DNA of 64,000 nt from Acidobacteriota bacterium (GCA_963666215.2 CAXWPL010000005.1:1115818-1179817), one strand, 5' to 3'. Shown: positions 26,856 through 40,966, counted from the stretch's first letter. The notes: a model not told the origin generated them from the sequence alone. Numbers and translations are program-made.

Positions 26856-27536
26856 TCAGACGGGAACCGGATGGCGTGCCAATCGGGTCGCCAGCCACAG
26901 GCCCCACGGACCCCACATCAGGTAGCTCAAGCGCGCGGGCACGGCGCCGTCAGGCGCTTGCCAAACCACCTGAAGAGCCAACGCGGCGAGTGCCGCACTG
27001 GCGCAAATGAGCGAAAAGGCGCCCAGAGCGCGCCCGCCGACGAGCACAGAACCGGCCGACGACGCTGGCTGCGGCCGGAACGCAAGATAGCCCCCAACCA
27101 CCAACCACCAGGCCGCCACTGCCGAGACTGCCAGAATCTCGCTCAGCAAGATCGGCCAATCCAGCAGGTCGGCCACCAGCCCGGCGCCTGAGATCAGAAA
27201 GCCCATGGCACCGAGAAGAGCCCAATAGCGCAGATGACGCGCGCGCTGCGGAAGCTCGGAGTTGGCGCCCAGCGCCATCGACGCGCCCGCCAAGGCGAAG
27301 CCCGCGGCGGCGAAGCCCATCCCGACGAGGATTCCCCCACTCCCGCCGAGGTGGAACGGCATCAGCACAGTCGACAGCGCGGCCAGCAGGCCGCCTACGA
27401 GCGCGGCGCGCGCTCCCGGAAGTCCCCACCCCGTGCGCGCGATCGCCGCCTCCGGTTTCCCGCTGGCGCCGAGCGCCTCGATTATCGCGGGATCCGGGCC
27501 CGACGATCTCGAACTGTCGTCGTCTTTGCTTTCCAT
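26856..27536 (-). CDS. hypothetical integral membrane protein
   Basis: 226 aa with about 6 Gly/Ala/Leu-rich hydrophobic helices. I recognise no family. It is the last gene of the minus-strand string that begins at 34406. Confidence 0.55.
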   Translation of the reverse strand: MESKDDDSSRSSGPDPAIIEALGASGKPEAAIARTGWGLPGARAALVGGLLAALSTVLMPFHLGGSGGILVGMGFAAAGFALAGASMALGANSELPQRARHLRYWALLGAMGFLISGAGLVADLLDWPILLSEILAVSAVAAWWLVVGGYLAFRPQPASSAGSVLVGGRALGAFSLICASAALAALALQVVWQAPDGAVPARLSYLMWGPWGLWLATRLARHPVPV

Positions 27537-27656: not shown

Positions 27657-29930
27657 CTACGCCAGCAGCAGAAAGGCCGCGGCAGACGAAGCCACTTGAA
27701 TCGTGAAGTTGTCGAGCCCGTGATTGCTGAAGGCCTCGACGGCGGCGCCGAACAGGCCACATGCAAGACCACCCATGAGCGCCGTGATCGCCGGCATGCC
27801 GAAGGCTAGCAAGCCGGCCATCGCTGCCACCGAACCGCCCGTAAAGACGGCAAGAGATCCTTCGAGCGTGCGGTGGGCGGGCACGCCGGCGAGCGATGGA
27901 ACCCGATAGTCGTGTCGCCCCCAGCGCGCGCCAACCGGCTCACCAAGAGCGTCCCCCCAGCCGCATACCAGATAGCCAATGAAGGCGAACTGCGGGAACA
28001 GCAGGTTGCTCAGGAGCCCGCCCGCGGCAGTGGTCACCATCGGCACGAGGATAAAGAGCGAGCGCCGCGGACGGTCGCTGTCGCGGGCCATCGACTCGTA
28101 GAAGGCGAAGCCGTCTCCTCGCCACACCGCGAACATCACGCAGCTCGTGATCACGATACCGAAGAGCATGACGCTCGGAAGCCCCAACGTCAGCTGAATC
28201 GCGCCTGCCATCGTGAAGATAAGAAAGTGGAAGATCTTGCGGGTGTAGGAGGTTTTGACTCCCTTGGTGACCCGTAGCCAGCCGGCCAACGTCGCGGCAA
28301 ACAATCCGTAGAACAAGAACGCCACGCTCAGCGCGGCCAACACGCCGACCGACGGGACCACCGCGGCGTAGGTGGCGGCAGGATCGGTCATGAAGCCCAT
28401 CAGCAGGCTGCCTGCGCTGAGGGCATGCGCGACTCCGGGCGCCGGGGCCACTGTCGAGGCTTGCGCCTGCCGCTGCGGACCCTCGCGCAGCGCCTGCGCG
28501 ATGCGGGCCTGCAGCCCTTCGAGTGCCGGACCGTAGACGTACCAGGGCCCGCCCTGCGCAAGAGTGCCGACGAGCTCGGTCGAGTACTCCTCGAACGCCT
28601 GCCACTCGAGCGGAACACTCCGGGCGATCTCGCGATCAACATCGGTGTCAGCTCGCCGCTCTCCAAGGTAAACGATGCCGCGTACGCCCCGACGATGCAG
28701 GTAGGTCCCGAACTCCGGACCATCGGGACGCGGACCCGTGGCAACGTTGGCCCCTATCAGCTCGACCTGCCCGCCACCCATCGGCTCGCGAAAGAGCTCC
28801 GGCGGCAGCGGAGGCAGATCGCTCTCATAGGCGAGCTGGAACGCTTGTGTGGCGGTCGAATTGGGGAGAAAGGCGTGCACCGCCAGCGGCCGCGGCAGCT
28901 GCTTGACGCGGCGCGCAGCGGCGAGGACGACCTGCGGGTCGTAGCGCTGCCAGGAAACCGGCAAAGCGGAGTACGGCACCTCGAAGTCTGCGAGCGCCTG
29001 CTCCTCCTTCTCGATCCAAGGACGATCCTCTGGATTGTCCGGGTCGAGCAGCGAGACGACGTGCTCGAGCTCGCCGGCCAGGTAAAACGCGAAGAGCTCC
29101 TCGTCGGTGGGGAACGGAGTGACGAACACACCCGGCTCGAGCTCGACAATCGGACCGCGTTCGAACGCTTCTTTTTTGCCGAGCGAGTACGCCGTCTCGG
29201 CAGTGTCTGTTTGCGCCTGCTTGGTGATTCTCTCCACGAGATTGCGAACCACCCCGACACGGTCGCGGCCCAGGTAGCAGTGGACGTAGTAACGACCGGT
29301 CCCCGAGGTCGCGAGGCTCTTGATCTTGGCCAGTGAGTCGACGTTGTCGCTCACCCACGGCAGCATCGGCGTGTGGATGAGCTCCAGACCCGCTTCAGCG
29401 ATCGCGGCGCGCTCGTCGGCGAGCAACTTGGGCTCGAATGGGACCACCGCGGGATGGAGCAGGCTGATCACACCGGTGTAGCCCTCGTCGCGCAGCGTGG
29501 CCAGCCTGTCGGCGTCGGGATACGGGCCGAAGGTGAACCGCGACACCTCGCTAACCTGAGTTGTCTGCAGGCCGATCATCACGGCCGGCGTCATCCAGAG
29601 CCACATCGTGGCGCCGGTAACGAGCACGAGACAAACGAGGGTCGCCACGGTCGCGTGCATTCCGCTGGAGCCGAGGCGGCGCGTGATCACCCAGCTCAGC
29701 AACGCTGAGCCGACCACAAACAGCCCGATGATGGCCATCACGCCAACGTTCTCGACGCCGTCGCCCCACTCCGCCGAGCGCGCTCGTTCGGTGAACCAGC
29801 GAACCGGGCCGAGCAGCGTCATCGATCCGGTAACGAAGCCGATCGGCCCCCAGACCGCGAAGAACGTCGCCCAGCAGGCGAGCTTGGAGCGCTCGCGCGG
29901 CTGATCGACCGTGATCAAGGTTGTGCTCAT
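27657..29930 (-). CDS. multidomain membrane protein: N-terminal TM block, three tandem PTP/DSP-like modules (only the first with a C-x5-R loop), C-terminal polyprenol(dolichol/phytol)-kinase / CdsA-superfamily membrane domain
   Basis: Module 1 has the P-loop YYVHCYLGRDRVGVV (HCX5R). Modules 2 and 3 align to it but read AVHAFLPNSTAT and WYVYGPALEGLQ. The C-terminus reads YTRKIFHFLIF ... GYLVCGWGDALGEPVGARWGRHDYRV ... RTLEGSLAVFTGG. Confidence 0.7.
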   Translation of the reverse strand: MSTTLITVDQPRERSKLACWATFFAVWGPIGFVTGSMTLLGPVRWFTERARSAEWGDGVENVGVMAIIGLFVVGSALLSWVITRRLGSSGMHATVATLVCLVLVTGATMWLWMTPAVMIGLQTTQVSEVSRFTFGPYPDADRLATLRDEGYTGVISLLHPAVVPFEPKLLADERAAIAEAGLELIHTPMLPWVSDNVDSLAKIKSLATSGTGRYYVHCYLGRDRVGVVRNLVERITKQAQTDTAETAYSLGKKEAFERGPIVELEPGVFVTPFPTDEELFAFYLAGELEHVVSLLDPDNPEDRPWIEKEEQALADFEVPYSALPVSWQRYDPQVVLAAARRVKQLPRPLAVHAFLPNSTATQAFQLAYESDLPPLPPELFREPMGGGQVELIGANVATGPRPDGPEFGTYLHRRGVRGIVYLGERRADTDVDREIARSVPLEWQAFEEYSTELVGTLAQGGPWYVYGPALEGLQARIAQALREGPQRQAQASTVAPAPGVAHALSAGSLLMGFMTDPAATYAAVVPSVGVLAALSVAFLFYGLFAATLAGWLRVTKGVKTSYTRKIFHFLIFTMAGAIQLTLGLPSVMLFGIVITSCVMFAVWRGDGFAFYESMARDSDRPRRSLFILVPMVTTAAGGLLSNLLFPQFAFIGYLVCGWGDALGEPVGARWGRHDYRVPSLAGVPAHRTLEGSLAVFTGGSVAAMAGLLAFGMPAITALMGGLACGLFGAAVEAFSNHGLDNFTIQVASSAAAFLLLA

Positions 29931-30025: not shown

Positions 30026-31324
30026 CTAGAAGCGGCGCTCGAGCCCGACGCCGAAGTTGAACTGCCGTCGGTCACGACTGAAGGCGAGCTTCTCCCACGA
30101 GTAGCCCGCGCTGAACTTGAACATGAACAAGCCGCCAAATGCCTTCTGGCCGCGAAGCGCTACCTTGCGCGAGTCGAATCGAGCCAGGTCGATCGTGCTG
30201 GTGATCTCGCCCGGCGACGAGCCGGTGCCGGCGGTAACGCCCAGGTAGTTGTCGGGGCCGCCGAAGTAGCGCCGCACGGTCAGGTTGTACGACTGCGAAG
30301 TCCCCTCCGACTTCGGCGTGATGTACGGGCGCAGCGAGATCCAGTAGTTGCCCTGGTACTTCGCGATGGTGCCGGTGTAAATCGTCACCTCCGACGACTC
30401 GAACTGCAGCCAGCGGAACCCGCCCGACAGCTCGACGCCGTGCGGCAGGTTCGCGTACAGCTCGCCACCTACCCTGTTCTTTGGAAAGAACCGATGCGAC
30501 GAGTAGCCGTAGTTGACGTAGGCGTAGAGGCCCTTCGCGAGACGGGGATAGGCATCAATCTCGTACTGTGCCGTGTCCTCGCGAAACCGGTTGGCGTAGT
30601 TGGCGCGCACGATCACCGAGCCCCTGCTCGTGCGATGTCCTAGAGCGAACGATGCCTGGTGCCACGGATTCGAGAAGGAGTCGATGTCGGTGAAGCCGTA
30701 CGTCAGCGAAGCTTTGCTGCGCATGCCGACCTGGCGCACGCTCTCCATGAGCTTGGCAGCATCCGCATCGCCAGGACTCACCCGCAGCAGCTGGTCGAGG
30801 GTCACTGCCGCGTCCGACAGCCGCCCCAAATCTCGTTCGGCGCGCGCCTTGCGCAGCAGGAACTTCTCGCTGTTGGGTTGGCGCCGAAGACCGTCGACGA
30901 GCGCGTCGAGCGCCCCGCCAGGGTTGTCGGCCCAGAGCTCGGTGTCGACCAGAGCGACCCGCGCATCGGCGAAATCGGGCTTGGCGCGCAGCACAATCAG
31001 AAACTGCTCACGCGCCTCGTCGTACTGCCGGTCCCAGGCGTGTACCCGGCCCAGCAGAACGCGAGCGTCGTGGTGCGAAGGCTTTGCGGCCAGGATCTCG
31101 CGGCACAGCGCACGCGCCGCCTCACGCTCGCCCGCGAAGGCCAGGCGTCGCGCCTCGTCGAAGGCATCGTCGGGTGCCGCACTGGCCACGAACAGGGGTG
31201 AGATCACCGCCGCTGGAGTTGATGCAAGGGCGGCGCTTGGCGCCGAGAGCAGGAGCACAGCCAGCAGCCCGAAGATGGTAGAAACGCCAGCGGCGCGCGC
31301 TGGCTTGGGTGTAGCGCTGATCAT
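30026..31324 (-). CDS. outer-membrane protein: signal peptide + TPR region + YaiO-type beta-barrel
   Basis: ATG at 31324 is preceded by GGAGG (the track ORF opens at 31378). The TPR-like helices include AREQFLIVLRAKPDFADARVALVDTELWADN. The C-terminal half has alternating aromatic beta-strand patterns and ends ...FNFGVGLERRF (terminal Phe). Confidence 0.7.
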   Translation of the reverse strand: MISATPKPARAAGVSTIFGLLAVLLLSAPSAALASTPAAVISPLFVASAAPDDAFDEARRLAFAGEREAARALCREILAAKPSHHDARVLLGRVHAWDRQYDEAREQFLIVLRAKPDFADARVALVDTELWADNPGGALDALVDGLRRQPNSEKFLLRKARAERDLGRLSDAAVTLDQLLRVSPGDADAAKLMESVRQVGMRSKASLTYGFTDIDSFSNPWHQASFALGHRTSRGSVIVRANYANRFREDTAQYEIDAYPRLAKGLYAYVNYGYSSHRFFPKNRVGGELYANLPHGVELSGGFRWLQFESSEVTIYTGTIAKYQGNYWISLRPYITPKSEGTSQSYNLTVRRYFGGPDNYLGVTAGTGSSPGEITSTIDLARFDSRKVALRGQKAFGGLFMFKFSAGYSWEKLAFSRDRRQFNFGVGLERRF

Positions 31325-31403
31325 GGTCAACCTCCTGGATCTGATCACTTTTCTCTGGGATTCGTTGCTTGGATTCACGCCTGTTCGCGCGGCCGCGCGA
31401 TCC

Positions 31404-32837
31404 TCAATCCTCGACAGCCGCCGGCTCCGCGTTCGCTGAGCGCCACGGCGCGGAGCGCCGCATGTCGCCCCAACGACCGCGTACCCCGAACAGCCACTGC
31501 AGGCTGGCGACGAGCCTGAACACCGCGATGAGCTGGCGGTATCCGAAGTTCTCGAGCATCGCCGCTGCGAACAACACGAGCACCTCCTTCGAGCGGCTGT
31601 AGACCTTGAAGGAAAGCTCTTCGAGCAGCAGACCCATCAGCGACAGCAGGGTGCCAAGACCGATCGCCACCACGAGGAACAGCAGCATCACGGTCGGGCT
31701 GACGTAGCCCAGATACCAGCCGACCACCATGTACAGATAGCCGGCAACCTCGACGATCGGCGCCAGACATTCGCCGAAGAGCATGAACGGCAAGCCAAGC
31801 CAACCGACGACACCGGCGCGGCGATTGAAGAACATGCCGCGGTGGCGGAAGAGAGTCTCCGTGAGCCCGCGCTGCCAGCGCATACGCTGCGCGGCGAGCG
31901 TCTTCAAATCACGTGGCACCTCGGTCCAGCAAATGGGCTCGGGAACGAACGTGATCTTGTAGGGGCGACCGCTCTCGCGTAGCTGGTGGTGCAGCCGCAC
32001 GGTCAGCTCCATGTCCTCGCCCACGGTCTCGCGATCGTAGCCGCCGGCATCAACGACCGCGTCACGGCGGAACAACCCGAACGCACCCGAGATCACCAAC
32101 AGCGACCCAATCTGCGCCCAGCCCAGTCGCCCGAAGAGGAACGCGCGCAGGTATTCGACGATCTGGAACAGCGGCAGCATGCGCGACGGCAGCCCAACTC
32201 GGATCACGTGCCCGTCACGTACCTGGCAACCGTTGGCGATGCGCACGGTTCCGCCTACGGCAACGGTTGTGGAATCCTCGATGAACGGCAACACGACGCG
32301 TTTGAGGCTTTGCCGCTCGAGAAAAGAGTCGGCGTCGATGCTGCAGAACAACGGGTACCGAGAGTTGTTGATGCCAGCGTTGAGCGCGTCGGCTTTGCCG
32401 CCGTTGTCCTTGTCGATGACGCGCAGCGCCGGATGGTCACGCGAGTGGTAGATCTGATGGACCGTCTCGCTGTGCAGCTGGCGGCGATACACCTCGGGGG
32501 CTGGCTCGAGATCGAACTCCTCGATCAGCGCGTCCAGCGTGCGATCCGTCGAGCCGTCGTTGATGACGACCACCTCGTGCTCGGGGTACTCGAGTTGCAA
32601 GAGTGAGTAGACCGAAGTGACGATCGTTTCTTCCTCGTTGTAGGCAGGGACCAGCAGGCTGATGGGCGGCTCCAACCCGGTGTAGCTGACGTGAAACCGC
32701 TCCAGGCTCGTCTCCTCGAGGTGGCGAAACACCCTGAAGACCGCCAGATAGTTGAGCAGCAGATAGAACCCGTTCACCACGACGAAGTAGAGGAGGAAGA
32801 ACCACTCAACGGGGCCGATCGTCGATACGAAGCTCAT
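31404..32837 (-). CDS. processive-type family-2 glycosyltransferase (PgaC/IcaA/YaiP-like polysaccharide synthase)
   Basis: N-terminal TM helices are followed by LLVPAYNEEE, VVINDGSTD, GKADALN, SIDADS, GAFGLFRR, GEDMELT and QRMRWQRG (QxxRW), then 3-4 C-terminal TM helices. The start overlaps the upstream stop as ATGA. Confidence 0.85.
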   Translation of the reverse strand: MSFVSTIGPVEWFFLLYFVVVNGFYLLLNYLAVFRVFRHLEETSLERFHVSYTGLEPPISLLVPAYNEEETIVTSVYSLLQLEYPEHEVVVINDGSTDRTLDALIEEFDLEPAPEVYRRQLHSETVHQIYHSRDHPALRVIDKDNGGKADALNAGINNSRYPLFCSIDADSFLERQSLKRVVLPFIEDSTTVAVGGTVRIANGCQVRDGHVIRVGLPSRMLPLFQIVEYLRAFLFGRLGWAQIGSLLVISGAFGLFRRDAVVDAGGYDRETVGEDMELTVRLHHQLRESGRPYKITFVPEPICWTEVPRDLKTLAAQRMRWQRGLTETLFRHRGMFFNRRAGVVGWLGLPFMLFGECLAPIVEVAGYLYMVVGWYLGYVSPTVMLLFLVVAIGLGTLLSLMGLLLEELSFKVYSRSKEVLVLFAAAMLENFGYRQLIAVFRLVASLQWLFGVRGRWGDMRRSAPWRSANAEPAAVED

Positions 32838-33904
32838 GCGGCGATCGCCTCCAGGCCCATTTCATCGATGACTTGCGCGAGGATGTCGCGAGCAAATCGA
32901 TCCACTTGGGCGCCTTGCAGTGCCACAAGCGCCTGTGAGCTCACGGAGGGGAGCTTCGCAATCGCCTGCGCGGCCCGATATCGCACCCAGTAGCGCTCGC
33001 TCGCCAGCTTCCCCGCCAGCATGGCGACATCCTTGTACGTGCCAAGACGACCCACCGCGGTGATGGCGTGCAACTGCACCCGCCAATTCGGGTGATCGAG
33101 GTGGTTGCGCACCACGTACAGTCCGTCGGGGTGTGCCAGATGTCCGAGCTGGTAGATGCCGGTCGTGATGACCTGCTGATCGTCGGTAGCGAGCAGAATC
33201 TCTTTGATCACCTGCACGGCGGCGCGCCGCTCGGCCGCCTCGAGGTACAGCATCAGCAACGGCTGGAAGGCCACCTCGGCCCGCTGGATGGTCTCGACGA
33301 GGGGCTGCGTGACGACATCCGCCCCAGCCTCACGCAGCAGCGCAAGCACGCGTGCCGGCGACCAGTCGGCGCGCGACGCAATCAGGGGCAAGATCAACGG
33401 CAGCGCCTCGCGAGGATTGATGCGCAGTAGCGCATGCGCGGCGGCGAGTGAGATGTATGGATTGGTCGACCTGGTCAGCGGTCGCAAGCTCCGCCTCAGG
33501 TCGCGATCGTGCAGATGCCCAATCGCCTGGATCGCCATCAACCGCTGCCGGACACTGCCGTGCCGCAGCGCCTCCTTGGCGTGCAGATCGATTCCACACA
33601 GGCGCCCCGCTTGTGCGAGATTCACGCGTGCGTCACCGGCGACGAACTCGTTGAAGTACACCCACAGGGGAAGCACCTCGACGGCCTCCTCGGCGGTGAG
33701 CTCGGGCATGCTCGTCGGGTACTCCAGAAGTGCCTCGGTGAACAGCGGCCTCCACCGCCCAACATGCAGCTCGCGGCGCGCGGCGCGCCGCTGGTTGCTC
33801 ACACGCAGGTAGAGAATCGTCCCCAGTAGGATCGACGTGCAGAGCACAACCAGGACCGCCGCGCAGAGACCGATCCAAATCATGATTCCAGGAGTGGCGA
33901 CCAC
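32834..33904 (-). CDS. HEAT/armadillo-repeat protein with one N-terminal TM helix
   Basis: GTG at 33904 lies 9 nt after AGGAGA (the track ORF opens at 33979 and would overlap the receiver gene). The TM helix is IMIWIGLCAAVLVVLCTSILLGTILYL. Repeated helical pairs follow (VRQRLMAIQAIGHL, YISLAAAHALLRI, WRVQLHAITAVGRL, WVRYRAAQAIAKL). Confidence 0.7.
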   Translation of the reverse strand: MVATPGIMIWIGLCAAVLVVLCTSILLGTILYLRVSNQRRAARRELHVGRWRPLFTEALLEYPTSMPELTAEEAVEVLPLWVYFNEFVAGDARVNLAQAGRLCGIDLHAKEALRHGSVRQRLMAIQAIGHLHDRDLRRSLRPLTRSTNPYISLAAAHALLRINPREALPLILPLIASRADWSPARVLALLREAGADVVTQPLVETIQRAEVAFQPLLMLYLEAAERRAAVQVIKEILLATDDQQVITTGIYQLGHLAHPDGLYVVRNHLDHPNWRVQLHAITAVGRLGTYKDVAMLAGKLASERYWVRYRAAQAIAKLPSVSSQALVALQGAQVDRFARDILAQVIDEMGLEAIAA

Positions 33905-33923
33905 GGCTTCGACTCTCCTGCGG

Positions 33924-34406
33924 TTAGGCGACGCGGGTCGAGGCATCCGGCGAGACCGCCGAGGAAGCGCTCGAGGCAATCAGCGCGCCTACTCGAGCGA
34001 TCAACTCCCGAGGTCGGAACGGCTTCGTGACATAGTCGTTGGCACCGGCCCGAAACGCCGCCACCATGTCCTCCTCCGAGGATTTGCCCGACAGGACAAT
34101 CACCGGCACCGACTCCCAACCCCGCGTCGCGCGGATCGACTTGACCACTTCGATGCCGCCGACAAATGGCATCATCACGTCGACAACGACGAGCGCCGGC
34201 GGAGGCCCTGTCGAGACCCGCGTGATGATCTGCTCACCATCCGCGTGGGGCTCGACCTGGTAGCCTTCGCGAGCGAGCAGGTACTGCAGGACGTAGCGCA
34301 TGTTCACGTCGTCTTCGGCAAGTAGTACCAACGGGTTAGGTCCGCTCTCGACGCCCGCGGGCCCAGACGTGTTGCTAGCCATTTCTGTGCCTACTTGTCG
34401 TTCCAT
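33924..34406 (-). CDS. single-domain response regulator (receiver only)
   Basis: LLAEDD, VVVDVMMP (phospho-Asp), VIVLSG and NDYVTKPF are present. AGGGAG precedes the ATG at 34406. Confidence 0.8.
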   Translation of the reverse strand: MERQVGTEMASNTSGPAGVESGPNPLVLLAEDDVNMRYVLQYLLAREGYQVEPHADGEQIITRVSTGPPPALVVVDVMMPFVGGIEVVKSIRATRGWESVPVIVLSGKSSEEDMVAAFRAGANDYVTKPFRPRELIARVGALIASSASSAVSPDASTRVA

Positions 34407-34515
34407 GGGACTCCCTAGAGGCTCGAGCGTTGAATTTAGCAGTGATAGCCGCCTAATACATATCTAGAAGCGTTGTTAGTCTGTTCTAGTCACGATCATT
34501 TATCTGGACCTATTC
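34407..34515. promoter_or_regulatory. AT-rich divergent promoter region between the EPS-type operon and the IMPase gene
   Basis: GC drops sharply here (…TTGAATTTAGCAGTGATAGCCGCCTAATACATATCTAGAAGCGTTGTTAGTCTGTTCTAGTCACGATCATTTATCTGG…). Individual -35/-10 elements were not assigned. Confidence 0.35.
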
Positions 34516-35337: not shown

Positions 35338-35356
35338 CGGCCAAGCGCGCGCGCGA

Positions 35357-36544
35357 ATGGCACAATGCGTTTCCATGGAAACGGAATCGGGTCTGGAACT
35401 CCTCGTACGTCCGCGGGTTGAAGATACGTACCTGCGCGTGCTCGTGGCGGAGGAAGATCCTGAGCTACGGGCACTGCTGGCGGCGACGCTGTCGCAGTTC
35501 GGCTTCGGCTGCCAGGAGGCGAGCAACGCCATCGACGCGCTGGCGATCCTGCGCGACGCAGCCGCCGAACGGTCCGACACGTCGGCAATGCCACGGCCCG
35601 GCTCAGACCGCAGCGGAAGCGACGCATATGCCAGCCTGGTCTGCGAATTCGGCCTGGTGATCTGCGACGTGCGTATGCCCGACGGTGACGGATTCTCTTT
35701 CCTCGACGAGGTGCTCGCCAGCTATCCGGACGTTTCCGTGATCATGCTGACCGGGGTTGACCGCAGCCGCGTTGCCGTGGAGTGCCTGCAGCGAGGGGCG
35801 ACCGAATATCTGGTCAAGCCGGTCGATATGGACGACCTGATCGTTGCGGTTCACCACGCCCTCGAGCGTCGGCGTCTGTTGCTGCAGAACCGCCTGTATC
35901 AGACCAAGCTCGAGCGTATGGTGCAGGCGCGCACCCATGAGCTCCGCCAGACGCTTGGGCGATTGCAACAGACCTACAGCGAAACGCTCGCAGCGCTGGC
36001 TACCGCCCTCGACGCCCGTGAGCAGGAAACCGCCCATCACTCGGAGCGAGTGGCGCGCGACTGCCAGCGCCTGCTGCAATGCTTGGGCGTGGAGGATGAC
36101 GAATCGCTCACGGTGACCGGTCAAGGTGCGCTACTGCATGACATCGGCAAGATCGGCATCCCGGATTCGATTCTGCTCAAGCCTGGCCCTCTCGACGACG
36201 CCGAATGGCGCGTAATGCGGCAGCACCCGTCGATCGGGCACGAGATCTTGCGCGGCATCGAGTTCCTCGAGCCTTCGCTCGAGCTGGTGCTGCATCACCA
36301 AGAGAAATTCGACGGAAGCGGCTACCCCACGGGCCTCGCGGGCAACGAGATCCCACTTTCCGCGCGCGCCTTCGCGGTGGTCGACGCCTGGGACGCGATG
36401 ACCCATGCGCGTCCATATCGCCAGCCGATGTCGGCCGGCAAGGCAACCGCTGAGTTGATCCGCTGCGCAGGCAGCCACTTCGACCCACAGGTGGTCGACA
36501 CGTTCTTGGAGATGAAACGAACCGAAGGTGTGCTCTCCATCTAG
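35357..36544 (+). CDS. response regulator with HD-GYP output domain (RpfG-like c-di-GMP phosphodiesterase)
   Basis: The receiver has VLVAEEDPEL, VICDVRMPDGDG and EYLVKP, with a ~25-aa Ser/Asp/Arg-rich insert before the phospho-Asp strand. The output domain has HHSERVA, LLHDIGKIGIPD and HHQEKFDGSGYP. Confidence 0.85.
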   Translation: MAQCVSMETESGLELLVRPRVEDTYLRVLVAEEDPELRALLAATLSQFGFGCQEASNAIDALAILRDAAAERSDTSAMPRPGSDRSGSDAYASLVCEFGLVICDVRMPDGDGFSFLDEVLASYPDVSVIMLTGVDRSRVAVECLQRGATEYLVKPVDMDDLIVAVHHALERRRLLLQNRLYQTKLERMVQARTHELRQTLGRLQQTYSETLAALATALDAREQETAHHSERVARDCQRLLQCLGVEDDESLTVTGQGALLHDIGKIGIPDSILLKPGPLDDAEWRVMRQHPSIGHEILRGIEFLEPSLELVLHHQEKFDGSGYPTGLAGNEIPLSARAFAVVDAWDAMTHARPYRQPMSAGKATAELIRCAGSHFDPQVVDTFLEMKRTEGVLSI

Positions 36545-36587
36545 TGGGCAACCCCGGCGAGCAGCGTTGAGCGGCGCGCCGCGCGAG

Positions 36588-37862
36588 ATGGCGCCCCGGC
36601 GAGAGCTGTTTGCCTGGTGCACGTTCGACTTCGCCAACTCCGGCTACACCACCGTCATCATCACGGCGGTTTTCAACGCCTACTTCGTTGCCGTTGTAGC
36701 CGAAGGGCGTCCCGAAGCGACCTTCCTCTGGACGCTCGCATTGGCCGTCTCGTACACGCTCGTGCTGGTGAGTGCCCCCGTGGTTGGCGCCATCGCCGAC
36801 TTCTCGGCAACCAAGAAGCGCTTTCTCGCCTGGACGACCTCGCTCTGTGTTCTATCGACGGCGGCGCTCTATCTGGTCGGCCCGGGCGATCTGTGGCTTG
36901 CGGCGGTGCTAATCATCCTTTCCAACACCTTCTACGCCGCCGGTGAGAACCTCATCGCCGCCTTCCTACCGGAGCTGGCACCGCCGGAAGATCTCGGACG
37001 GCTCTCCGGATACGGCTGGGCCTGGGGCTACGTCGGCGGGCTGCTCTCGCTCGGTCTTTGTCTCCTGTACCTCCGCTGGGCAGACAGCAGCGGTATCGCC
37101 ACCGTCGACGCGGTACCGGTCACCAATCTGATTGTTGCCGCGCTCTTCGGGCTGTCGGCGCTGCCGACCTTTCTGTGGCTGCCGGAGCGCAGCAAGCAAG
37201 CCACGCTCGGCAGCGCCTCGAAGTATGTGGCGATGGGATTCGCGCGCCTGCGCAACACCTGGCACGAGGCACAGCGATTCGCCGACCTGCGCCAGCTGCT
37301 CGTTTGCCTGTTCACCTACCATTGCGGGATCAATGTGGTCACGACGCTGGCGGCGGTCTTCGCCCAGCAGACGCTCGGCTTCAGCACCGAGGAAACCATC
37401 CAACTGGTGCTCGTGGTCAACGTCAGTGCCGCGGCTGGAGCCTTCGTGTTTGGCCCGATCCAGGATCGCATCGGATCGAAGAAGACGATCGCCATCACTC
37501 TTGTGCTGTGGACGATCACGGCACTTGGCGCGGCGGCCGTACAGAACAAGTGGCAGCTGTTGGTCATCGGCAACCTGGCCGGCCTGGCGATTGGTTCGAG
37601 CCAGTCGGCGGGGCGCGCGATGGTGGCACTGTTCGCGCCGGCCTCGAAGACAGCCGAGTTCTTCGGTCTGTGGGGCCTGGCGATCAAATCGTCGTCGGTG
37701 GTCGGACCGCTGACCTATGGACTGCTCACGCTGCTGACGGGCTCTCACCGGCTGGCGGTGGTCGTGACGAGCGTTTTCTTCATTGTCGGGCTCGTGCTGC
37801 TGCGCCCCATCGACGAGGCGCGCGGACGGCGCGCCGCACTGGCCTACGACGAAGCCGGCTGA
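36588..37862 (+). CDS. MFS transporter (UMF1/Atg22-like)
   Basis: The start MAPRRELFAWCTFDFANSGYTTVIITAVFNAYF is at 36588. About 12 TM helices are present. Confidence 0.8.
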   Translation: MAPRRELFAWCTFDFANSGYTTVIITAVFNAYFVAVVAEGRPEATFLWTLALAVSYTLVLVSAPVVGAIADFSATKKRFLAWTTSLCVLSTAALYLVGPGDLWLAAVLIILSNTFYAAGENLIAAFLPELAPPEDLGRLSGYGWAWGYVGGLLSLGLCLLYLRWADSSGIATVDAVPVTNLIVAALFGLSALPTFLWLPERSKQATLGSASKYVAMGFARLRNTWHEAQRFADLRQLLVCLFTYHCGINVVTTLAAVFAQQTLGFSTEETIQLVLVVNVSAAAGAFVFGPIQDRIGSKKTIAITLVLWTITALGAAAVQNKWQLLVIGNLAGLAIGSSQSAGRAMVALFAPASKTAEFFGLWGLAIKSSSVVGPLTYGLLTLLTGSHRLAVVVTSVFFIVGLVLLRPIDEARGRRAALAYDEAG

Positions 37863-40800
37863 TCGCTCGGCTGGAGGACCGGCGCGGTAACGCGTCGCGA
37901 CCGCTCGTCGACGCAGTAGCGGTTCTTTCCCGACGTCTTGGCGGCGTACATGGCCTCGTCCGCGCGTCGAACCAGGTCCTCGTGGAGCTCTTTCGAATAG
38001 CGCTCGGGCGTACCGACGGCTGCCACACCCACCGAAATCGTCACCTGGGCGCGCGCCCCGTTGAGCTGCAGCCGCGTCCGCTCCACGTCGGCACGGATCT
38101 TCTCGGCCAGGAGGCTGGCACCGTTCACTCCGGTGTTCGGCAGCATGATGGCGAACTCCTCGCCGCCGTAACGCGCGGCCAGATCGCTGGCGCGCACGCC
38201 ATAGGCCAGACGCGCGGCGATGCGGCGCAGCGCCTCATCACCTGCGGCGTGACCCAGCCGGTCGTTGATCAACTTGAAGTTGTCGAGATCGATGACTAAC
38301 ACCGACAGCACCCCGCTCGCGCCAAGGCGCGACATGCGCCGCAGCTCGCGCTCCAGGTTCTCCATGAAAAAGCGACGGTTCGGCAGGTTCGTGAGCTCAT
38401 CGGTAGTCGCCATGCGCTCGAGCAAAGCGTTCTTTTCGACCAGCTCGCGTGTTCGCCGATCGACCATCTCACGCAACCGCAACCGCTCTTCCTCGACGCT
38501 GCGAACGCGACGCGCCACCCAGGCCGCAACCAAGCCCAGCGCGAGCAACACACCCAGTCCACGGAACCAGGCCGTTTCGTGGAGCGCCGGACTTGACTCG
38601 AAGCTCACCTCCGCGGGCACCGCGCTCCAGATCCCGTCGGGCGATATCGCCTGCACCTGCAGCGTGTAGTCGCCCGGCGCCAGGCCGGCGAAGCTCACCC
38701 CCACCTCACGACTCGGGCTCGACCAGCGCTCCGAGCGCCCCAACAGCCGGTAGGAGTAACGCATGCTCTCCTGATCGCGGAATGACAGCGCTCCAAACTC
38801 CACGCGCACGTCGTTGACATCGGGAGACAGCTTCAGCGCATCATCACCGGGCCGCCACGCTGCCATCTCGCCATCCACGAAAACCGCGCGCACCAGTACC
38901 TTCGGGGCGGCCGACACCGACGGCCCACTCTGGTCGCCTTGGAAGAGCGCAAGTCCCCGCGGTGTGCCAAACCACAGGCCCCCACTGGAGTCGCGTAGTC
39001 CTGCTGCCGGGTTGCCCGCGCTGTCGCCAAGCCCGTCTTGCAGATCGAAGTGCGTGAGCCCCACTTGTGGGTCCCAGCGATCGAGGCCGCGATTGGTGAA
39101 CAGCCACACCCGGCCGCGGCTCCCCACAACAACCTGATGGACGAAATCGTTGGCCAGCCCGGAAAGCGCGCGGGTGAGACGTACGATCTCCCCGGTGGAG
39201 GAAAACCGCAGCGCACCGAGTCCGTTGGTCGCCGCCCACACGGAGCCGTCGTCGCCCGCGGCCAGCGACCAAACGGTAGTGCTCTCGAGCTCGCTGTCGT
39301 CCTCGATTGAAGAGAAGTGCGACCCGTTCTGACGGAAGATGCCCCTCGCCTTGGTCGCAACCCACAGCCGCTGCCTGGAATCGACCACCAAGTCGGCAAT
39401 CCGTACACCGTCGAGATCTTCGCTCCCCGACGGCTTCGTCAGTCGACCAGCGGACAGCAGCGCGAGGCCGGCTGATGTCCCCACCCACACGTCGTCACCC
39501 GACGCGGCTGCAAGCGCCGTGACCTTCTCGGATGGCAGGCCATCGGCGACGCCCCAACGCTGACGCAACCTCCCGGAGCGGCGGCGAACGAGGCCTCTCT
39601 CGGTGCCGAGGAGCATCGAGCCATCTGGGCGTCCCAGCAGCACTGTCGTGGGCTGCGCCGCCGCGGAGTCGGCTGTGGTTCCTTCGAGCCCGGGAACCGT
39701 GCCCACATCGAAGCCGACCTGATGCGGCGACGCCGTTAGCCGCCTCACACCGCCAGGAGTCGATATCCAGATCGCGCCGGCGGAATCCTCGGCGACGTCG
39801 ATGACGGATGGATGCGGCAAACCGTCGGCCAGCGTGAAGTGAGCGAAGTCGCGCCTCGTCAGATGCACCATTCCTTCGTCCGTGGCCACCCAGATGTTGT
39901 CCTCGAGATCGACCAGAAGGGCGTTCGCGAGACTCGACGTCTGACCCGGAACGCCAACGAGCTCCACGCTCTCAAAGCGGCCGCGATGCCGCCGGACAAC
40001 GCCTTGACTCGTCGCCAGCCACAACGACCCGTCCGACTGACGCACTGCGGCGCCAACGACTGGCGGTCGCTCGGCGGCACCGAGCAACTCGCCTCCCCAC
40101 TCCCGCGCTTGGATCGGCTCGAGCCGATCGCCACCTGGCGAAAGCCTCGCCAGCCCGCCCGCGGACCCCGCCCAGATGACGCCGGCGTCGTCTTCGACGA
40201 GCGCCACGACAGGGGACTGCGCCGCTCGGTCGGATCGGGACATCTCGATTTGGCGAAGACGACTGGCGGAGCGGTCGAGCACCGCCAAGCCGGCGGAGGA
40301 CCCCACCCACAATCGTCCGGCCGTATCGAGCAGCAAGGATCTGGCGGGGTCGGAAGGCACGCCGTCGGCGCCCCCCAAGAGGCGCGCCCCGTCGGCCGTC
40401 AGATGCCAGAGCCCTGTCGAAGTCGCTGCCCAGACCTCGCCACCGGGCTCGTCTGTCGCTGAGTCCGAGACCACCAGCGCGTCCACGCGCCCAACCCCCG
40501 ACCAGCCAAAGCCGTCTGTCCAGTAGGTCGACGCATCCCGGGCGCTGTCGGACAGATCGCGAGAACCACCGTCGGGCGCTGCCTCATCACCACCGGCCGA
40601 GGCTGCGGCCTCCGCGACCCGTCGGTCGCCCTGTCCCGCCGGCGCAGACAATGCCGAGCGCGGAGCGAAGAGCATCACGTCGTCGCTCGTGCCCACCACC
40701 ACGCCGCCTCCCGGAAGCGACGCGAGCGCCCCGACCCGGTTGCCCGGGAGTCCGTCGGCGGTCGTGAAGACGCGGAAGGCGCTGCCGTCGAAACGTGCCA

Positions 40801-40966
40801 GCCCCGCCGTGGTGCCGGCCCATACATATCCCTCCTCGTCCTGCGCGAGCGACAGCACCTTGGGAGCCGGCAGTCCGTCGGCAGCCCCGTAGGGAGCCGT
40901 CGTTGCCAGGCGCGCCGAAGGCAAGCAGACCTGTGGCGGGAAGAATCTTTTGCACATTTTTGACAT
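37844..40966 (-). CDS. sensor diguanylate cyclase: beta-propeller (two-component regulator propeller / Y_Y_Y-type) periplasmic region, TM helix, GGDEF domain
   Basis: 1040 aa with many W-x-G/A-T-x-x-G-L propeller repeats. The TM helix is WFRGLGVLLALGLVAAWVA, followed by a coiled coil. The GGDEF domain has RYGGEEF and an I-site RASD five residues upstream. Confidence 0.85.
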   Translation of the reverse strand: MSKMCKRFFPPQVCLPSARLATTAPYGAADGLPAPKVLSLAQDEEGYVWAGTTAGLARFDGSAFRVFTTADGLPGNRVGALASLPGGGVVVGTSDDVMLFAPRSALSAPAGQGDRRVAEAAASAGGDEAAPDGGSRDLSDSARDASTYWTDGFGWSGVGRVDALVVSDSATDEPGGEVWAATSTGLWHLTADGARLLGGADGVPSDPARSLLLDTAGRLWVGSSAGLAVLDRSASRLRQIEMSRSDRAAQSPVVALVEDDAGVIWAGSAGGLARLSPGGDRLEPIQAREWGGELLGAAERPPVVGAAVRQSDGSLWLATSQGVVRRHRGRFESVELVGVPGQTSSLANALLVDLEDNIWVATDEGMVHLTRRDFAHFTLADGLPHPSVIDVAEDSAGAIWISTPGGVRRLTASPHQVGFDVGTVPGLEGTTADSAAAQPTTVLLGRPDGSMLLGTERGLVRRRSGRLRQRWGVADGLPSEKVTALAAASGDDVWVGTSAGLALLSAGRLTKPSGSEDLDGVRIADLVVDSRQRLWVATKARGIFRQNGSHFSSIEDDSELESTTVWSLAAGDDGSVWAATNGLGALRFSSTGEIVRLTRALSGLANDFVHQVVVGSRGRVWLFTNRGLDRWDPQVGLTHFDLQDGLGDSAGNPAAGLRDSSGGLWFGTPRGLALFQGDQSGPSVSAAPKVLVRAVFVDGEMAAWRPGDDALKLSPDVNDVRVEFGALSFRDQESMRYSYRLLGRSERWSSPSREVGVSFAGLAPGDYTLQVQAISPDGIWSAVPAEVSFESSPALHETAWFRGLGVLLALGLVAAWVARRVRSVEEERLRLREMVDRRTRELVEKNALLERMATTDELTNLPNRRFFMENLERELRRMSRLGASGVLSVLVIDLDNFKLINDRLGHAAGDEALRRIAARLAYGVRASDLAARYGGEEFAIMLPNTGVNGASLLAEKIRADVERTRLQLNGARAQVTISVGVAAVGTPERYSKELHEDLVRRADEAMYAAKTSGKNRYCVDERSRRVTAPVLQPSDQPASS

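What the first reader, a model, noticed from the sequence alone, without database searches (positions are those of the whole stretch)
30026..34406. Candidate uncharacterised synthase-dependent exopolysaccharide system: receiver - HEAT-repeat TM protein - GT2 synthase - TPR/YaiO outer-membrane barrel
The four genes run from an AT-rich promoter. The spacings are a 19-nt gap with an AGGAGA RBS, an ATGA overlap, and a 79-nt gap with GGAGG.
- The GT2 has the full processive-synthase motif set (DxD, GEDxE, QxxRW) between N- and C-terminal TM helices.
- The last gene fuses TPR helices to a YaiO-type barrel. That is the same logic as PgaA, BcsC and NfrA, but with a different barrel family.
- In E. coli K-12, yaiO lies near the GT2 gene yaiP in a cryptic, uncharacterised locus (from memory). 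The GT2-YaiO pairing may therefore be an old but unstudied secretion module.
- The HEAT-repeat membrane protein has no counterpart in the Pga, Bcs, Alg, Pel or Nfr systems. It could be the regulatory or co-polymerase subunit.
- The stand-alone receiver suggests phosphorylation control.
- Two further minus-strand genes follow (the phosphatase/kinase fusion and a membrane protein). c-di-GMP enzymes flank the locus.
Basis: partly seen in the sequence, partly recalled or inferred. Interest (0 to 1): 0.7.

Follow-up and report, generated by a model that had tools for sequence, protein, structure and literature searches.

The report
Uncharacterised polysaccharide synthase–export gene module
This is a real, intact four-gene operon (signal receiver, membrane-anchored HEAT-repeat protein, polysaccharide synthase, outer-membrane TPR/YaiO pore) that recurs in hundreds of bacterial species across many phyla and looks like an undescribed machine for making and exporting a sugar polymer, possibly switched on by phosphorylation.

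Summary
Four intact minus-strand genes are present with the stated spacings:
- REC, 33924-34406
- single-pass HEAT protein, 32834-33904
- GT2, 31404-32837
- TPR-YaiO, 30026-31324

The GT2 carries NDGS/DAD/GED/QRMRW between terminal TM helices. Its nearest relative is PgaC, at only 27% identity. An AlphaFold model of the last protein gives 10 TPR helices plus a 14-stranded barrel. Its best PDB matches are BcsC and PelB.

Synteny is strong:
- A HEAT-family motif marks 413 species genomes.
- GT2 follows HEAT in 56 of 56 loci with enough flank, with a 4-nt overlap in 66 of 81 pairs.
- A dedicated receiver is present in 42 of 56 and a YaiO barrel in at least 39 of 56.
- All six contexts sampled from the YaiO side carry HEAT-GT2.
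- Relatives add hybrid kinases, Hpt proteins, a GH-like protein, an LtaS/OpgB-like transferase and a CE4 deacetylase.

E. coli K-12 has yaiS-yaiP-yaiX-yaiO, a HEAT-less analogue.

It fails the membership tests for Pga, Bcs, Nfr and Xag. I found no description of it in the searchable literature.

Best reading: a new variant of the synthase-dependent exopolysaccharide systems. Polymer identity and receiver-to-HEAT gating are inferred, not shown.

The parts
34407..34515 (.). AT-rich divergent intergenic region, the presumed promoter region of the operon
   Evidence: It is 45% GC against 65.9% for the window. It lies between the REC gene and the divergent IMPase gene. The simple scan found no sigma-70 consensus.
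33924..34406 (-). Stand-alone response-regulator receiver (160 aa)
   Evidence: - PF00072, E = 7e-26, with no output domain.
- D32-D33, D76, S106 and K128 are intact.
- Operon-linked orthologues are mostly 38-50% identical across phyla, against mostly 26-35% for other REC domains in the same loci.
- A receiver is present in 42 of 56 loci with enough flank.
32834..33904 (-). Single-pass inner-membrane protein with a cytoplasmic HEAT/PBS-lyase-type alpha-solenoid (356 aa, GTG start)
   Evidence: - HEAT_2, E = 1e-19.
- One TM helix at residues 9-27, followed by an Arg-rich stretch.
- AF2 model at pLDDT 94.6: helix 5-60, then about 9 helix pairs.
- The family has 2058 representatives at 50% clustering with E <= 1e-30, including some giant multi-repeat HEAT proteins. 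A family motif marks 413 species genomes.
- No curated family name exists.
31404..32837 (-). Membrane-embedded family-2 glycosyltransferase, the putative processive synthase (477 aa)
   Evidence: - Matches PF00535, PF13641, PF13632 and Chitin_synth_2.
- Motifs NDGS93, DAD168, GED273 and QRMRW317 are present.
- 27% identical to E. coli PgaC, E = 5e-32.
- Best PDB relative is BcsA, E = 2e-8, with the motifs aligned.
- ATGA overlap with the HEAT gene. The same 4-nt overlap occurs in 66 of 81 related pairs.
30026..31324 (-). Outer-membrane protein: signal peptide, about 5 TPR pairs, and a 14-stranded YaiO-family beta-barrel (432 aa)
   Evidence: - PF19413, E = 4e-60. TIGR04390 scores 188 bits against a 32-bit cut-off.
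- AF2 model at pLDDT 89.4: helices 51-200, strands 203-431.
- Foldseek top hits are BcsC (9b8a, E = 1.6e-11) and PelBC (9h80_M, E = 8e-8). OmpG and PgaA also match.
27657..29930 (-). 757-aa multi-domain membrane protein of unknown function. It is a likely accessory gene of the operon in this lineage.
   Evidence: - It starts 95 nt after the YaiO stop codon, with no terminator-like site in the gap.
- It is conserved directly after TPR-YaiO in L086 and L094/L095, where it is split into 2-3 ORFs. The C-terminal TM domain is 68-73% identical.
- It has an HCYLGRDR (CX5R) motif.
- It gets no Pfam, NCBIfam or PDB match.
26856..27536 (-). 226-aa polytopic membrane protein, a possible last gene of the operon
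   Evidence: - About five hydrophobic segments.
- A homologue lies in the same position in L094/L095, 49-52% identical over part of its length.
- No family match.
35357..36544 (+). REC-HD-GYP protein (c-di-GMP phosphodiesterase type). It is a conserved divergent neighbour; functional linkage is unproven.
   Evidence: - HD_5, E = 3e-36, plus Response_reg.
- The same position is kept in L086 and L094/L095 at 64-69% identity.
37844..40966 (-). Reg_prop/Y_Y_Y-GGDEF diguanylate cyclase. It is a conserved neighbour; functional linkage is unproven.
   Evidence: - GGDEF, E = 6e-45, with Reg_prop and Y_Y_Y domains.
- The same neighbour is present in L086 and L094/L095.

Best explanation
The locus encodes a synthase-dependent exopolysaccharide machine of a family not described so far.

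**Shown here**
- The four genes are intact and tightly coupled.
- The GT2 has the catalytic signature and membrane topology of processive synthases such as PgaC, IcaA and BcsA.
- The last protein is predicted to be a periplasmic TPR arm on a 14-stranded outer-membrane barrel, the architecture used by BcsC, PelB and PgaA.
- The receiver / HEAT / GT2 / YaiO set is co-inherited across many phyla.

**Inferred mechanism**
1. A phosphorelay phosphorylates Asp76 of the stand-alone receiver. In many relatives the relay is encoded in cis as a hybrid kinase plus Hpt. In this window it acts in trans.
2. The phosphorylated receiver docks on the cytoplasmic HEAT solenoid. That protein is anchored by one TM helix and is made in stoichiometric amounts with the GT2 through translational coupling.
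3. The HEAT-GT2 complex is thereby activated. It polymerises a UDP-sugar, most likely UDP-GlcNAc given the PgaC/IcaA/NodC/chitin-synthase affinity. It threads the chain through its own TM channel.
4. The TPR arm captures the chain in the periplasm, and the YaiO barrel passes it across the outer membrane.
5. Lineage-specific accessories trim or decorate the polymer. Here these are the 757-aa and 226-aa membrane proteins. Elsewhere they are a GH-like protein, an LtaS/OpgB-like transferase and a CE4 deacetylase.

The confidence given (0.75) is for the general claim of a synthase-dependent polysaccharide synthesis and export machine. The specific receiver-to-HEAT-to-GT2 gating step deserves about 0.35-0.4.
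For: - **Gene structure and spacing:**
- **Domain content:**
- **GT2 motifs and TM segments:**
- **GT2 relatives:** PgaC at 27% identity and E = 5e-32; BcsA with motifs aligned.
- **Outer-membrane protein:** AF2 model of TPR plus a 14-strand barrel at pLDDT 89.4. Top Foldseek hits are BcsC, PelBC, OmpG and PgaA.
- **HEAT protein:** model at pLDDT 94.6, with an N-terminal TM helix and positive-inside charges. A variant, P0414, has a secreted N-terminal extension before the TM, which confirms N-out/C-in topology.
- **Synteny:** 413 genomes with the family motif. GT2 adjacent in 56 of 56, REC in 42 of 56, YaiO in at least 39 of 56. A 4-nt HEAT/GT2 overlap in 66 of 81 pairs. From the YaiO side, 6 of 6 contexts match.
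- **Receiver:** phospho-acceptor residues are intact. Hybrid HK-REC-Hpt or REC-Hpt-REC genes lie inside related operons.
- **Accessory enzymes typical of EPS systems in relatives:** a GH-like family matching PDB 10yv at E = 1.3e-16; PF00884 LtaS/OpgB-like and CE4 proteins.
- **E. coli analogue:** yaiS (PIG-L deacetylase), yaiP (GT2 with DAD, VED and RWRRW), yaiX and yaiO.
Against: - There is no experimental evidence of any polymer.
- The window itself has no recognisable glycoside hydrolase, lyase or deacetylase, which the known systems nearly always carry.
- The barrel has 14 strands, fewer than PgaA/BcsC (16) or AlgE (18). I could not measure the pore.
- The TPR arm (~150 aa) is far shorter than in PgaA, BcsC, PelB or NfrA. 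Many relatives have a bare barrel.
- About 30% of the sampled loci have no detectable YaiO next to HEAT-GT2. One Burkholderiales clade has neither REC nor YaiO.
- The receiver-HEAT and HEAT-GT2 contacts are inferred from gene order only. No natural fusion was found.
- Foldseek finds only generic solenoids for the HEAT protein.
- The neighbouring HD-GYP and GGDEF genes leave c-di-GMP control open.
- Sugar specificity rests only on family resemblance.
Confidence: 0.75

Rival explanations
1. It is simply a divergent poly-beta-1,6-GlcNAc (Pga/Hms/Ica-type) operon. On this reading the HEAT protein stands in for PgaD and the YaiO barrel for PgaA.
For: - PgaC_IcaA is the best NCBIfam hit for the GT2 (151 bits).
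- The GT2 is 27% identical to E. coli PgaC over 323 aa.
- CE4 deacetylases occur in three related loci.
- E. coli yaiS is a GlcNAc-type PIG-L deacetylase.
Against: - The GT2 scores far below the equivalog cut-off (151 against 422 bits).
- The window has no PgaB-like deacetylase/hydrolase and no PgaD.
- The porin scores 17.9 bits against a 366-bit cut-off for PgaA and belongs to another barrel family.
- 27% identity does not fix the linkage or even the sugar.
Confidence: 0.15
2. The same machine is gated by c-di-GMP rather than, or in addition to, phosphorylation. On this reading the HEAT protein, the GT2 or the receiver is the c-di-GMP receptor, as in PgaCD, BcsA-PilZ, Alg44, PelD and NfrB.
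For: - The REC-HD-GYP and Y_Y_Y-GGDEF genes beside the operon are conserved in three related Acidobacteria loci.
- HD-GYP or GGDEF-EAL genes also lie near L003, L032, L057 and L072.
- All characterised Gram-negative synthase-dependent systems use c-di-GMP (established knowledge).
Against: - No PilZ, MshEN, GGDEF I-site or GAF domain is present in any of the four proteins.
- c-di-GMP genes are absent from most related loci.
- The receiver and Hpt/hybrid-kinase partners are the recurrent signalling components.
Confidence: 0.25
3. The GT2 does not make an exported polymer. It makes a membrane or periplasmic glycoconjugate (a glycolipid, an OPG-like glucan or a short oligosaccharide), and the YaiO barrel is a general or uptake porin that merely travels with it.
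For: - Weak hits to Glyco_transf_21 and other non-polymerising GT2 families.
- The small 14-strand barrel resembles OmpG and FadL as well as EPS porins.
- Some loci lack the barrel.
Against: - The QRMRW, GED and DAD motifs and the C-terminal TM bundle are the processive-synthase signature.
- The TPR-barrel fusion has BcsC and PelB as its best structural matches.
- The barrel is co-inherited with HEAT-GT2 in at least 39 of 56 loci and in 6 of 6 reciprocal samples.
- GH-like and polymer-modifying genes occur in relatives.
Confidence: 0.1

Closest known systems
PgaABCD / HmsHFRS (PNAG) system
   Same: - It has a ~450-aa membrane GT2 synthase with DxD, xED and QxxRW. This is the closest characterised homologue (27% identity).
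- It has a small co-subunit gene coupled to the synthase.
- It has an outer-membrane TPR plus beta-barrel exporter.
   Different: - The window has no PgaB and no PgaD.
- The co-subunit here is a 356-aa TM-HEAT solenoid encoded upstream of the synthase.
- The porin is a 14-strand YaiO-family barrel with a short TPR arm. It is not the 16-strand PgaA family.
- A dedicated receiver takes the place of a c-di-GMP site.
- The equivalog cut-offs are not met.
Bcs cellulose system (BcsA-BcsB-BcsC)
   Same: - The GT2 catalytic motifs align with BcsA.
- BcsC is the top structural match of the TPR-YaiO model.
- Some relatives carry an alkaline-phosphatase-superfamily membrane transferase, which recalls BcsG.
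   Different: - The synthase has no PilZ domain, and there is no BcsB.
- The barrel and the TPR arm are much smaller.
- Sequence similarity to BcsC is negligible: 18.8 bits against an 858-bit cut-off.
Pel system (PelB porin, PelD/PelE/PelF/PelG)
   Same: - PelB is a TPR plus barrel exporter and a top structural match.
- PelE is an inner-membrane all-alpha repeat scaffold, the nearest functional analogy to the TM-HEAT protein (from my own knowledge, not tested here).
   Different: - Pel uses a cytosolic GT4 enzyme (PelF), not a membrane GT2.
- Pel has the c-di-GMP receptor PelD.
- There is no sequence relationship to the HEAT protein.
NfrAB-YbcH and the Xanthomonas xagABCD / Fe-oxidiser sfz-sfb clusters
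   Same: They are GT2-based exopolysaccharide operons recognised more recently (Nfr, sfz/sfb) or still poorly characterised (xag; Tao 2010). They include an outer-membrane partner and a biofilm role.
   Different: - NfrB is 745 aa and nearly unrelated (E = 2e-4).
- The XagB-like Sfz2 proteins are ~690 aa with an N-terminal GspE_N-type domain, and they pair with BcsB-like proteins.
- No Xanthomonas protein appeared among the listed HEAT-family hits.
- I had no xag sequences to compare directly.
E. coli K-12 yaiS-yaiP-yaiX-yaiO cryptic locus
   Same: - It pairs a membrane GT2 with a YaiO-family barrel in one operon. YaiP has DAD, VED, RWRRW and an N- plus C-terminal TM arrangement, and is 27% identical to the window GT2.
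- It also carries sugar-modifying enzymes.
   Different: - It has no HEAT protein and no receiver.
- Its barrel has no TPR arm.
- yaiX is broken by IS2 in K-12.
- Its function is unknown. In the searchable literature YaiO appears mainly as a PCR marker and listed outer-membrane protein.

Membership tests
Synthase-dependent exopolysaccharide secretion systems (general kind) | An inner-membrane processive GT2 synthase with D, DxD, (T/G)ED and QxxRW motifs and a TM channel | tested here: met
   NDGS93, DAD168, GED273 and QRMRW317 are present, flanked by TM segments. They align to the BcsA motifs.
Synthase-dependent exopolysaccharide secretion systems (general kind) | An outer-membrane beta-barrel porin with a periplasmic TPR domain, encoded in the operon | tested here: met
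   The AF2 model (pLDDT 89.4) shows 10 TPR helices and a 14-strand barrel. Foldseek top hits are BcsC and PelBC. The gene is co-inherited with the synthase.
Synthase-dependent exopolysaccharide secretion systems (general kind) | An inner-membrane co-subunit or post-translational activator of the synthase | tested here: inconclusive
   The TM-HEAT gene is translationally coupled to the GT2 in 66 of 81 pairs, and a dedicated receiver is present. No interaction or ligand test was possible.
Synthase-dependent exopolysaccharide secretion systems (general kind) | A polymer-modifying or polymer-cleaving enzyme in the operon | tested here: inconclusive
   None is recognisable in the window. GH-like, LtaS/OpgB-like and CE4 genes are present in related loci.
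Synthase-dependent exopolysaccharide secretion systems (general kind) | Production and export of an extracellular polysaccharide | not testable with these tools
   This needs genetics and carbohydrate chemistry.
Pga/Hms/Ica PNAG system | A PgaC/IcaA equivalog synthase | tested here: not met
   TIGR03937 scores 151 bits against a 422-bit cut-off. Identity to E. coli PgaC is 27%.
Pga/Hms/Ica PNAG system | A PgaB/IcaB deacetylase, a PgaD/IcaD co-subunit and a PgaA porin | tested here: not met
   The window has no deacetylase or PgaD-like gene. TIGR03939 (PgaA) scores 17.9 bits against a 366-bit cut-off.
Bcs cellulose system | BcsA with a C-terminal PilZ domain, BcsB and BcsC | tested here: not met
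   CelA scores 56 bits against a 699-bit cut-off. There is no PilZ domain and no BcsB. BcsC (NF008520) scores 18.8 bits against 858.
Nfr / Xag-type systems | A GT2 fused to an MshEN/GspE_N-type c-di-GMP-binding domain | tested here: not met
   The window GT2 has only GT2-family hits over its 477 aa. NfrB similarity is E = 2e-4. The Sfz2/XagB-like architecture is taken from PMC8250860. Xag sequences themselves were not available.
YaiO outer-membrane barrel family (PF19413 / TIGR04390) | A match to the family models above their curated cut-offs | tested here: met
   PF19413 scores 203 bits against 23.9. TIGR04390 scores 188 bits against 32.
Two-component receiver domains | The acidic pocket (DD), phospho-acceptor Asp, Ser/Thr and Lys | tested here: met
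   D32-D33, D76, S106 and K128 are present. PF00072 scores 91 bits.

The most novel reading that the evidence does not exclude
This would be a phylum-spanning, previously unrecognised class of synthase-dependent exopolysaccharide machine. Its synthase would be switched on by a phosphorelay instead of by c-di-GMP: a CheY-like receiver docking on a membrane-anchored HEAT scaffold. Its polymer would leave the cell through a new exporter family, the YaiO barrels. That would also assign a function to the cryptic E. coli yaiS-yaiP-yaiX-yaiO locus.
Probability: 0.35. Interest if true: 0.8.

Novelty: new variant of a known kind. Interest (0 to 1): 0.68.

Why it matters
Only a handful of synthase-dependent exopolysaccharide systems are known in Gram-negative bacteria: alginate, cellulose, PNAG, Pel and Nfr. 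All of them are gated by c-di-GMP.

This module would add three things:
- a new outer-membrane exporter family (YaiO);
- a new cytoplasmic co-subunit (the TM-HEAT protein);
- apparently a different control logic (a phosphorelay ending on a single-domain receiver).

The module is widespread in soil, sediment and water bacteria: Acidobacteriota, Gemmatimonadota, Nitrospirota and Nitrospinota, Planctomycetota, Bacteroidota, and many Beta- and Gammaproteobacteria. It could therefore account for a share of unexplained biofilm or soil-aggregate polysaccharide.

It also offers the first functional hypothesis for YaiO. In the searchable literature YaiO appears mainly as an E. coli PCR marker.

Cultured carriers exist (Lysobacter, Thermomonas, Aerolutibacter, Lentisalinibacter, Caldimonas), so the idea can be tested directly.

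Tried and rejected
1. **Identity with Xanthomonas xagABCD.** The literature shows that XagB-like Sfz2 proteins carry an N-terminal GspE_N-type domain and pair with BcsB-like proteins. No Xanthomonas entry appeared among the listed HEAT-family hits. I rejected identity as unsupported.
2. **Function of the 757-aa protein.** Pfam and NCBIfam scans of the whole protein and of its domains, and a PDB sequence search, gave nothing significant. My recollection that its C-terminal GDxxGxxxGxxxG-like stretch resembles polyprenol or phytol kinases stays an untested lead.
3. **Rosetta-stone REC-HEAT fusion.** The one longer family member inspected (P0414, 508 aa) has a secreted N-terminal extension, not a receiver.
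4. **Foldseek of the HEAT model.** It returned only generic alphaRep, ARM, importin and PP2A-A solenoids.
5. **Promoter, terminator and RNA scans.** The simple scans found no sigma-70 promoter in the upstream region. The window has no Rfam family.
6. **Literature searches.** I searched YaiO, TIGR04390, PF19413, yaiP, and HEAT repeat combined with PgaC, synthase-dependent or exopolysaccharide. None returned a description of this module. The one promising hit, the Lipocone paper, mentions HEAT only for beta-catenin.
7. **First clustering attempt.** Single-linkage clustering merged the GT2 and YaiO proteins into one cluster. I replaced it with domain-wise jackhmmer labelling.

Full report
**1. 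What is in the sequence**

- The receiver gene runs from ATG 34406 to TAA 33924.
- After 19 nt containing AGGAGA, a GTG at 33904 opens a 356-aa protein that ends at TGA 32834.
- Its stop overlaps the ATG of the 477-aa GT2 (ATGA; 32837-31404).
- After 79 nt containing GGAGG, an ATG at 31324 opens a 432-aa protein that ends at 30026.

The longest-ORF starts (33979 and 31378) are less likely than these starts, which have ribosome-binding sites. The intergenic region upstream of the receiver (34407-34515) is 45% GC in a 65.9% GC window. A simple sigma-70 scan finds nothing there. The window contains no Rfam family.

**2. The four proteins**

*Receiver.* It is a receiver domain only (PF00072, E = 7e-26). 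D32-D33, D76, S106 and K128 are intact.

*HEAT protein.*
- It has one hydrophobic helix at residues 9-27, followed by an Arg-rich stretch. By the positive-inside rule the rest of the protein is cytoplasmic.
- It matches HEAT_2 (E = 1e-19).
- The AlphaFold model is confident (pLDDT 94.6). It shows a long helix at 5-60 and then about nine helix pairs.
- Foldseek and a profile search of the PDB return only generic alphaRep, ARM, importin and PP2A-A solenoids.
- A family variant (P0414) has a signal peptide and ~160 extra residues before the TM helix. This agrees with an N-out, C-in topology.

*GT2.*
- It carries NDGS93, DAD168, GED273 and QRMRW317.
- These lie between an N-terminal hydrophobic segment and several C-terminal ones.
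- They align with the catalytic motifs of BcsA.
- Its best curated family is PgaC_IcaA, at 151 bits and far below the 422-bit cut-off.
- It is 27% identical to E. coli PgaC (E = 5e-32) and 27% identical to E. coli YaiP (E = 2e-12).
- It is almost unrelated to NfrB (E = 2e-4).

*Outer-membrane protein.*
- It matches YaiO PF19413 (203 bits) and TIGR04390 (188 bits), plus TPR families.
- Its model (pLDDT 89.4) has a signal-peptide helix, ten TPR helices (51-200) and 14 beta-strands (203-431).
- The best PDB matches are the cellulose exporter BcsC (E = 1.6e-11) and the Pel exporter PelBC (E = 8e-8).
- OmpG and the PgaA barrel also appear in the list.
- TM-scores are modest (~0.4), as expected for a smaller barrel and a shorter TPR arm.

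**3. Conserved synteny, starting from the HEAT protein**

The HEAT protein has about 60 detectable relatives in the word-indexed search, all unnamed 'HEAT repeat' proteins of ~350 aa. A profile of 21 of them finds 2058 representatives at 50% clustering with E <= 1e-30 among 1.84 billion proteins. That count includes some giant multi-repeat HEAT proteins.

A scan of one genome per species with the family motif [WY]WVRYRAA[QH] found 413 genomes that encode a relative. The 80 best loci were fetched. They come from:
- Acidobacteriota, Gemmatimonadota and Planctomycetota
- Nitrospirota and Nitrospinota
- a cyanobacterium
- many Beta- and Gammaproteobacteria, including cultured Lysobacter, Thermomonas, Aerolutibacter, Lentisalinibacter and Caldimonas
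- two MAGs labelled Bacillota

I called genes with a per-locus codon model and labelled domains with jackhmmer seeded from the window proteins. Among the 56 loci with enough flank:
- GT2 lies immediately downstream of HEAT in 56.
- A receiver is nearby in 42.
- A YaiO barrel is nearby in 39. This is a lower bound, because some ~1-kb gaps were left uncalled.
- Both are present in 32, and neither in 7. Those seven include one closely related Burkholderiales MAG clade.

The HEAT stop and GT2 start overlap by 4 nt in 66 of 81 pairs. The operon-linked receivers are mostly 38-50% identical to the window's receiver across phyla. Other REC domains in the same loci are mostly 26-35% identical. The receiver is therefore a dedicated, co-inherited component.

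Three gene orders recur:
- The commonest is REC-YaiO(±TPR)-HEAT-GT2.
- The Lysobacter/Thermomonas group has HEAT-GT2-TPR-YaiO followed by two more genes.
- The window has REC-HEAT-GT2-TPR-YaiO.

**4. The reciprocal test, starting from the YaiO protein**

TPR-YaiO relatives were found at 31-61% identity. I looked up six genomic contexts:
- L086, an Acidobacteria MAG
- L087, Labilibaculum (Bacteroidota)
- L090 to L093

All six have HEAT-GT2 next to the barrel gene. So the association holds from both sides.

**5. Signalling partners**

In at least eight related loci, the operon also encodes a hybrid histidine kinase of the form HisKA-HATPase-REC(-REC)-Hpt, with CHASE, PAS, GAF or 7TMR-DISM sensor domains.
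- In L091 and L093 a REC-Hpt-REC protein sits directly beside the HEAT gene. In L090 it lies beside the divergently transcribed TPR-YaiO gene.
- This is the signature of a phosphorelay that ends on the single-domain receiver.

In the window no kinase is adjacent. Instead, a divergent block lies upstream:
- an IMPase
- REC-HD-GYP (35357-36544)
- an Atg22-like MFS transporter
- a convergent Y_Y_Y-GGDEF (37844-40966)

This block is conserved with the operon in three related Acidobacteria loci: L086, L094 and L095. Control by c-di-GMP therefore remains possible. However, none of the four core proteins has a known c-di-GMP-binding domain.

**6. Accessory genes**

In the window, a 757-aa and a 226-aa membrane protein follow the barrel gene.
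- Both are conserved in the same place in the close relatives. There the 757-aa protein is split into two or three ORFs, and its C-terminal TM domain is 68-73% identical.
- The 757-aa protein has an HCYLGRDR (CX5R) motif. It gets no significant Pfam, NCBIfam or PDB match, whole or by domain.
- Its N-terminal phosphatase-like module recurs fused to TPRs next to the HEAT gene in four Lysobacter-group loci.

Other lineages carry accessories typical of exopolysaccharide operons:
- A family of 285-580-aa proteins with no Pfam or NCBIfam hit. Its profile matches a 'putative GH97' structure (10yv, E = 1.3e-16). It occurs in about 12 distinct loci.
- A ~780-aa membrane protein with a PF00884 domain and weak LtaS/OpgB similarity, which recalls BcsG.
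- CE4 deacetylases, in three loci.

None of these has a homologue anywhere in the window.

**7. The E. coli lead**

K-12 has yaiS (PIG-L deacetylase), yaiP (GT2), yaiX (an acyltransferase pseudogene split by IS2) and yaiO on one strand.
- YaiP has DGS, DAD, VED and RWRRW motifs with an N-terminal and three C-terminal TM segments.
- YaiO is a bare YaiO-family barrel.

The GT2-YaiO pairing extends beyond the HEAT-containing family.

**8. Most likely mechanism**

Shown: gene structure, domain and motif content, predicted folds, and co-inheritance.

Inferred:
1. A phosphorelay phosphorylates D76 of the receiver.
2. The receiver binds the cytoplasmic HEAT solenoid, which is tethered beside the GT2 and made with it by translational coupling.
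3. The complex polymerises a UDP-sugar and translocates the chain. UDP-GlcNAc is the best guess from family affinity and from the deacetylases in relatives.
4. The TPR arm and the 14-strand YaiO barrel export the chain.
5. The accessory proteins modify or trim it.

I put ~0.75 on 'a synthase-dependent polysaccharide synthesis and export machine'. I put ~0.35-0.4 on the specific receiver-to-HEAT-to-GT2 gating.

**9. Comparison with known systems**

It works like Pga, Bcs, Pel, Alg and Nfr, but it fails the membership tests for each.
- The PgaC, PgaA, CelA and BcsC curated cut-offs are all missed by wide margins.
- There is no PgaB, PgaD, BcsB, PilZ or MshEN.

The Xanthomonas xag and Fe-oxidiser sfz/sfb clusters are the nearest poorly characterised GT2 operons in the literature. 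They differ in two ways:
- XagB-like Sfz2 is ~690 aa with a GspE_N-type domain.
- It pairs with BcsB-like proteins.

I could not compare xag sequences directly.

The literature searches found no description of the HEAT-GT2-YaiO module. Papers mentioning YaiO treat it mainly as a PCR marker or a listed outer-membrane protein. Subscription-only papers were not searchable.

**10. Verdict**

I rate it a new variant of a known kind. It has a new porin family, a new co-subunit and probably a new control input. It is widespread and testable in cultured carriers. Interest: 0.68.

**Caveats**
- The gene calls in related loci are my own.
- Only the best 80 of the 413 loci were examined.
- I could not measure the barrel's pore size.
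- Nothing here demonstrates a polymer.

Noticed in passing
window 27657-29930 (-): This is a 757-aa orphan membrane protein. It has N-terminal TM helices, three soluble modules (the first with an HCYLGRDR CX5R motif) and a highly conserved C-terminal polytopic domain. It has no Pfam, NCBIfam or PDB match. In relatives it is split into 2-3 ORFs (L086, L094/L095). Its phosphatase-like module recurs fused to TPRs beside the HEAT gene in Lysobacter-group loci (L051, L065, L066, L078).
   Followed up: partly
L051 14379-15236; L003 10669-12198; also L037, L042, L060, L061, L065, L066, L070, L071, L073, L083: A family of 285-580-aa proteins lies downstream of GT2 or YaiO. It has no Pfam or NCBIfam hit, but its profile matches PDB 10yv ('putative GH97', E = 1.3e-16). 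It is a candidate unclassified glycoside hydrolase tied to this system.
   Followed up: partly
window 34516-40966: The block IMPase, REC-HD-GYP, Atg22-like MFS transporter and Y_Y_Y-GGDEF is conserved next to the operon in L094/L095. L086 keeps it without the IMPase. In L094/L095 the wider synteny extends to BolA/glutaredoxin on one side and DUF167/ACT on the other.
   Followed up: partly
window 36528-36544 and 37844-37862: The called MFS start overlaps the HD-GYP stop by 17 nt. The convergent MFS and GGDEF genes overlap by 19 nt at their 3' ends. The MFS start may in fact lie further downstream.
   Followed up: no
L064 2647-7803: A Nitrospinota MAG carries two HEAT-GT2 pairs in tandem after REC-YaiO. 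This is a duplication of the core pair.
   Followed up: no
L085 (E. coli K-12 380069-384616): YaiP has RWRRW in place of the canonical QxxRW. The acyltransferase gene yaiX between yaiP and yaiO is split by IS2 in K-12, so the locus may be intact only in other E. coli strains.
   Followed up: partly
L014 and L055: Two MAGs labelled Bacillota/Heliobacteriaceae carry the module. One of them (L014) includes a YaiO outer-membrane barrel. This could be mis-binning or a diderm lineage.
   Followed up: no
P0414: This HEAT-family variant has a signal peptide and a ~160-aa extracytoplasmic extension before the TM helix. Some family members may therefore also sense or contact something in the periplasm.
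   Followed up: no
window 21949-25148 (-): Two adjacent genes encode FAD-dependent amine-oxidase/desaturase-type proteins. They lie next to an ACT-domain gene. A glycine-cleavage T-like gene (25357-26499, +) lies further on. None of these appears related to the finding.
   Followed up: no
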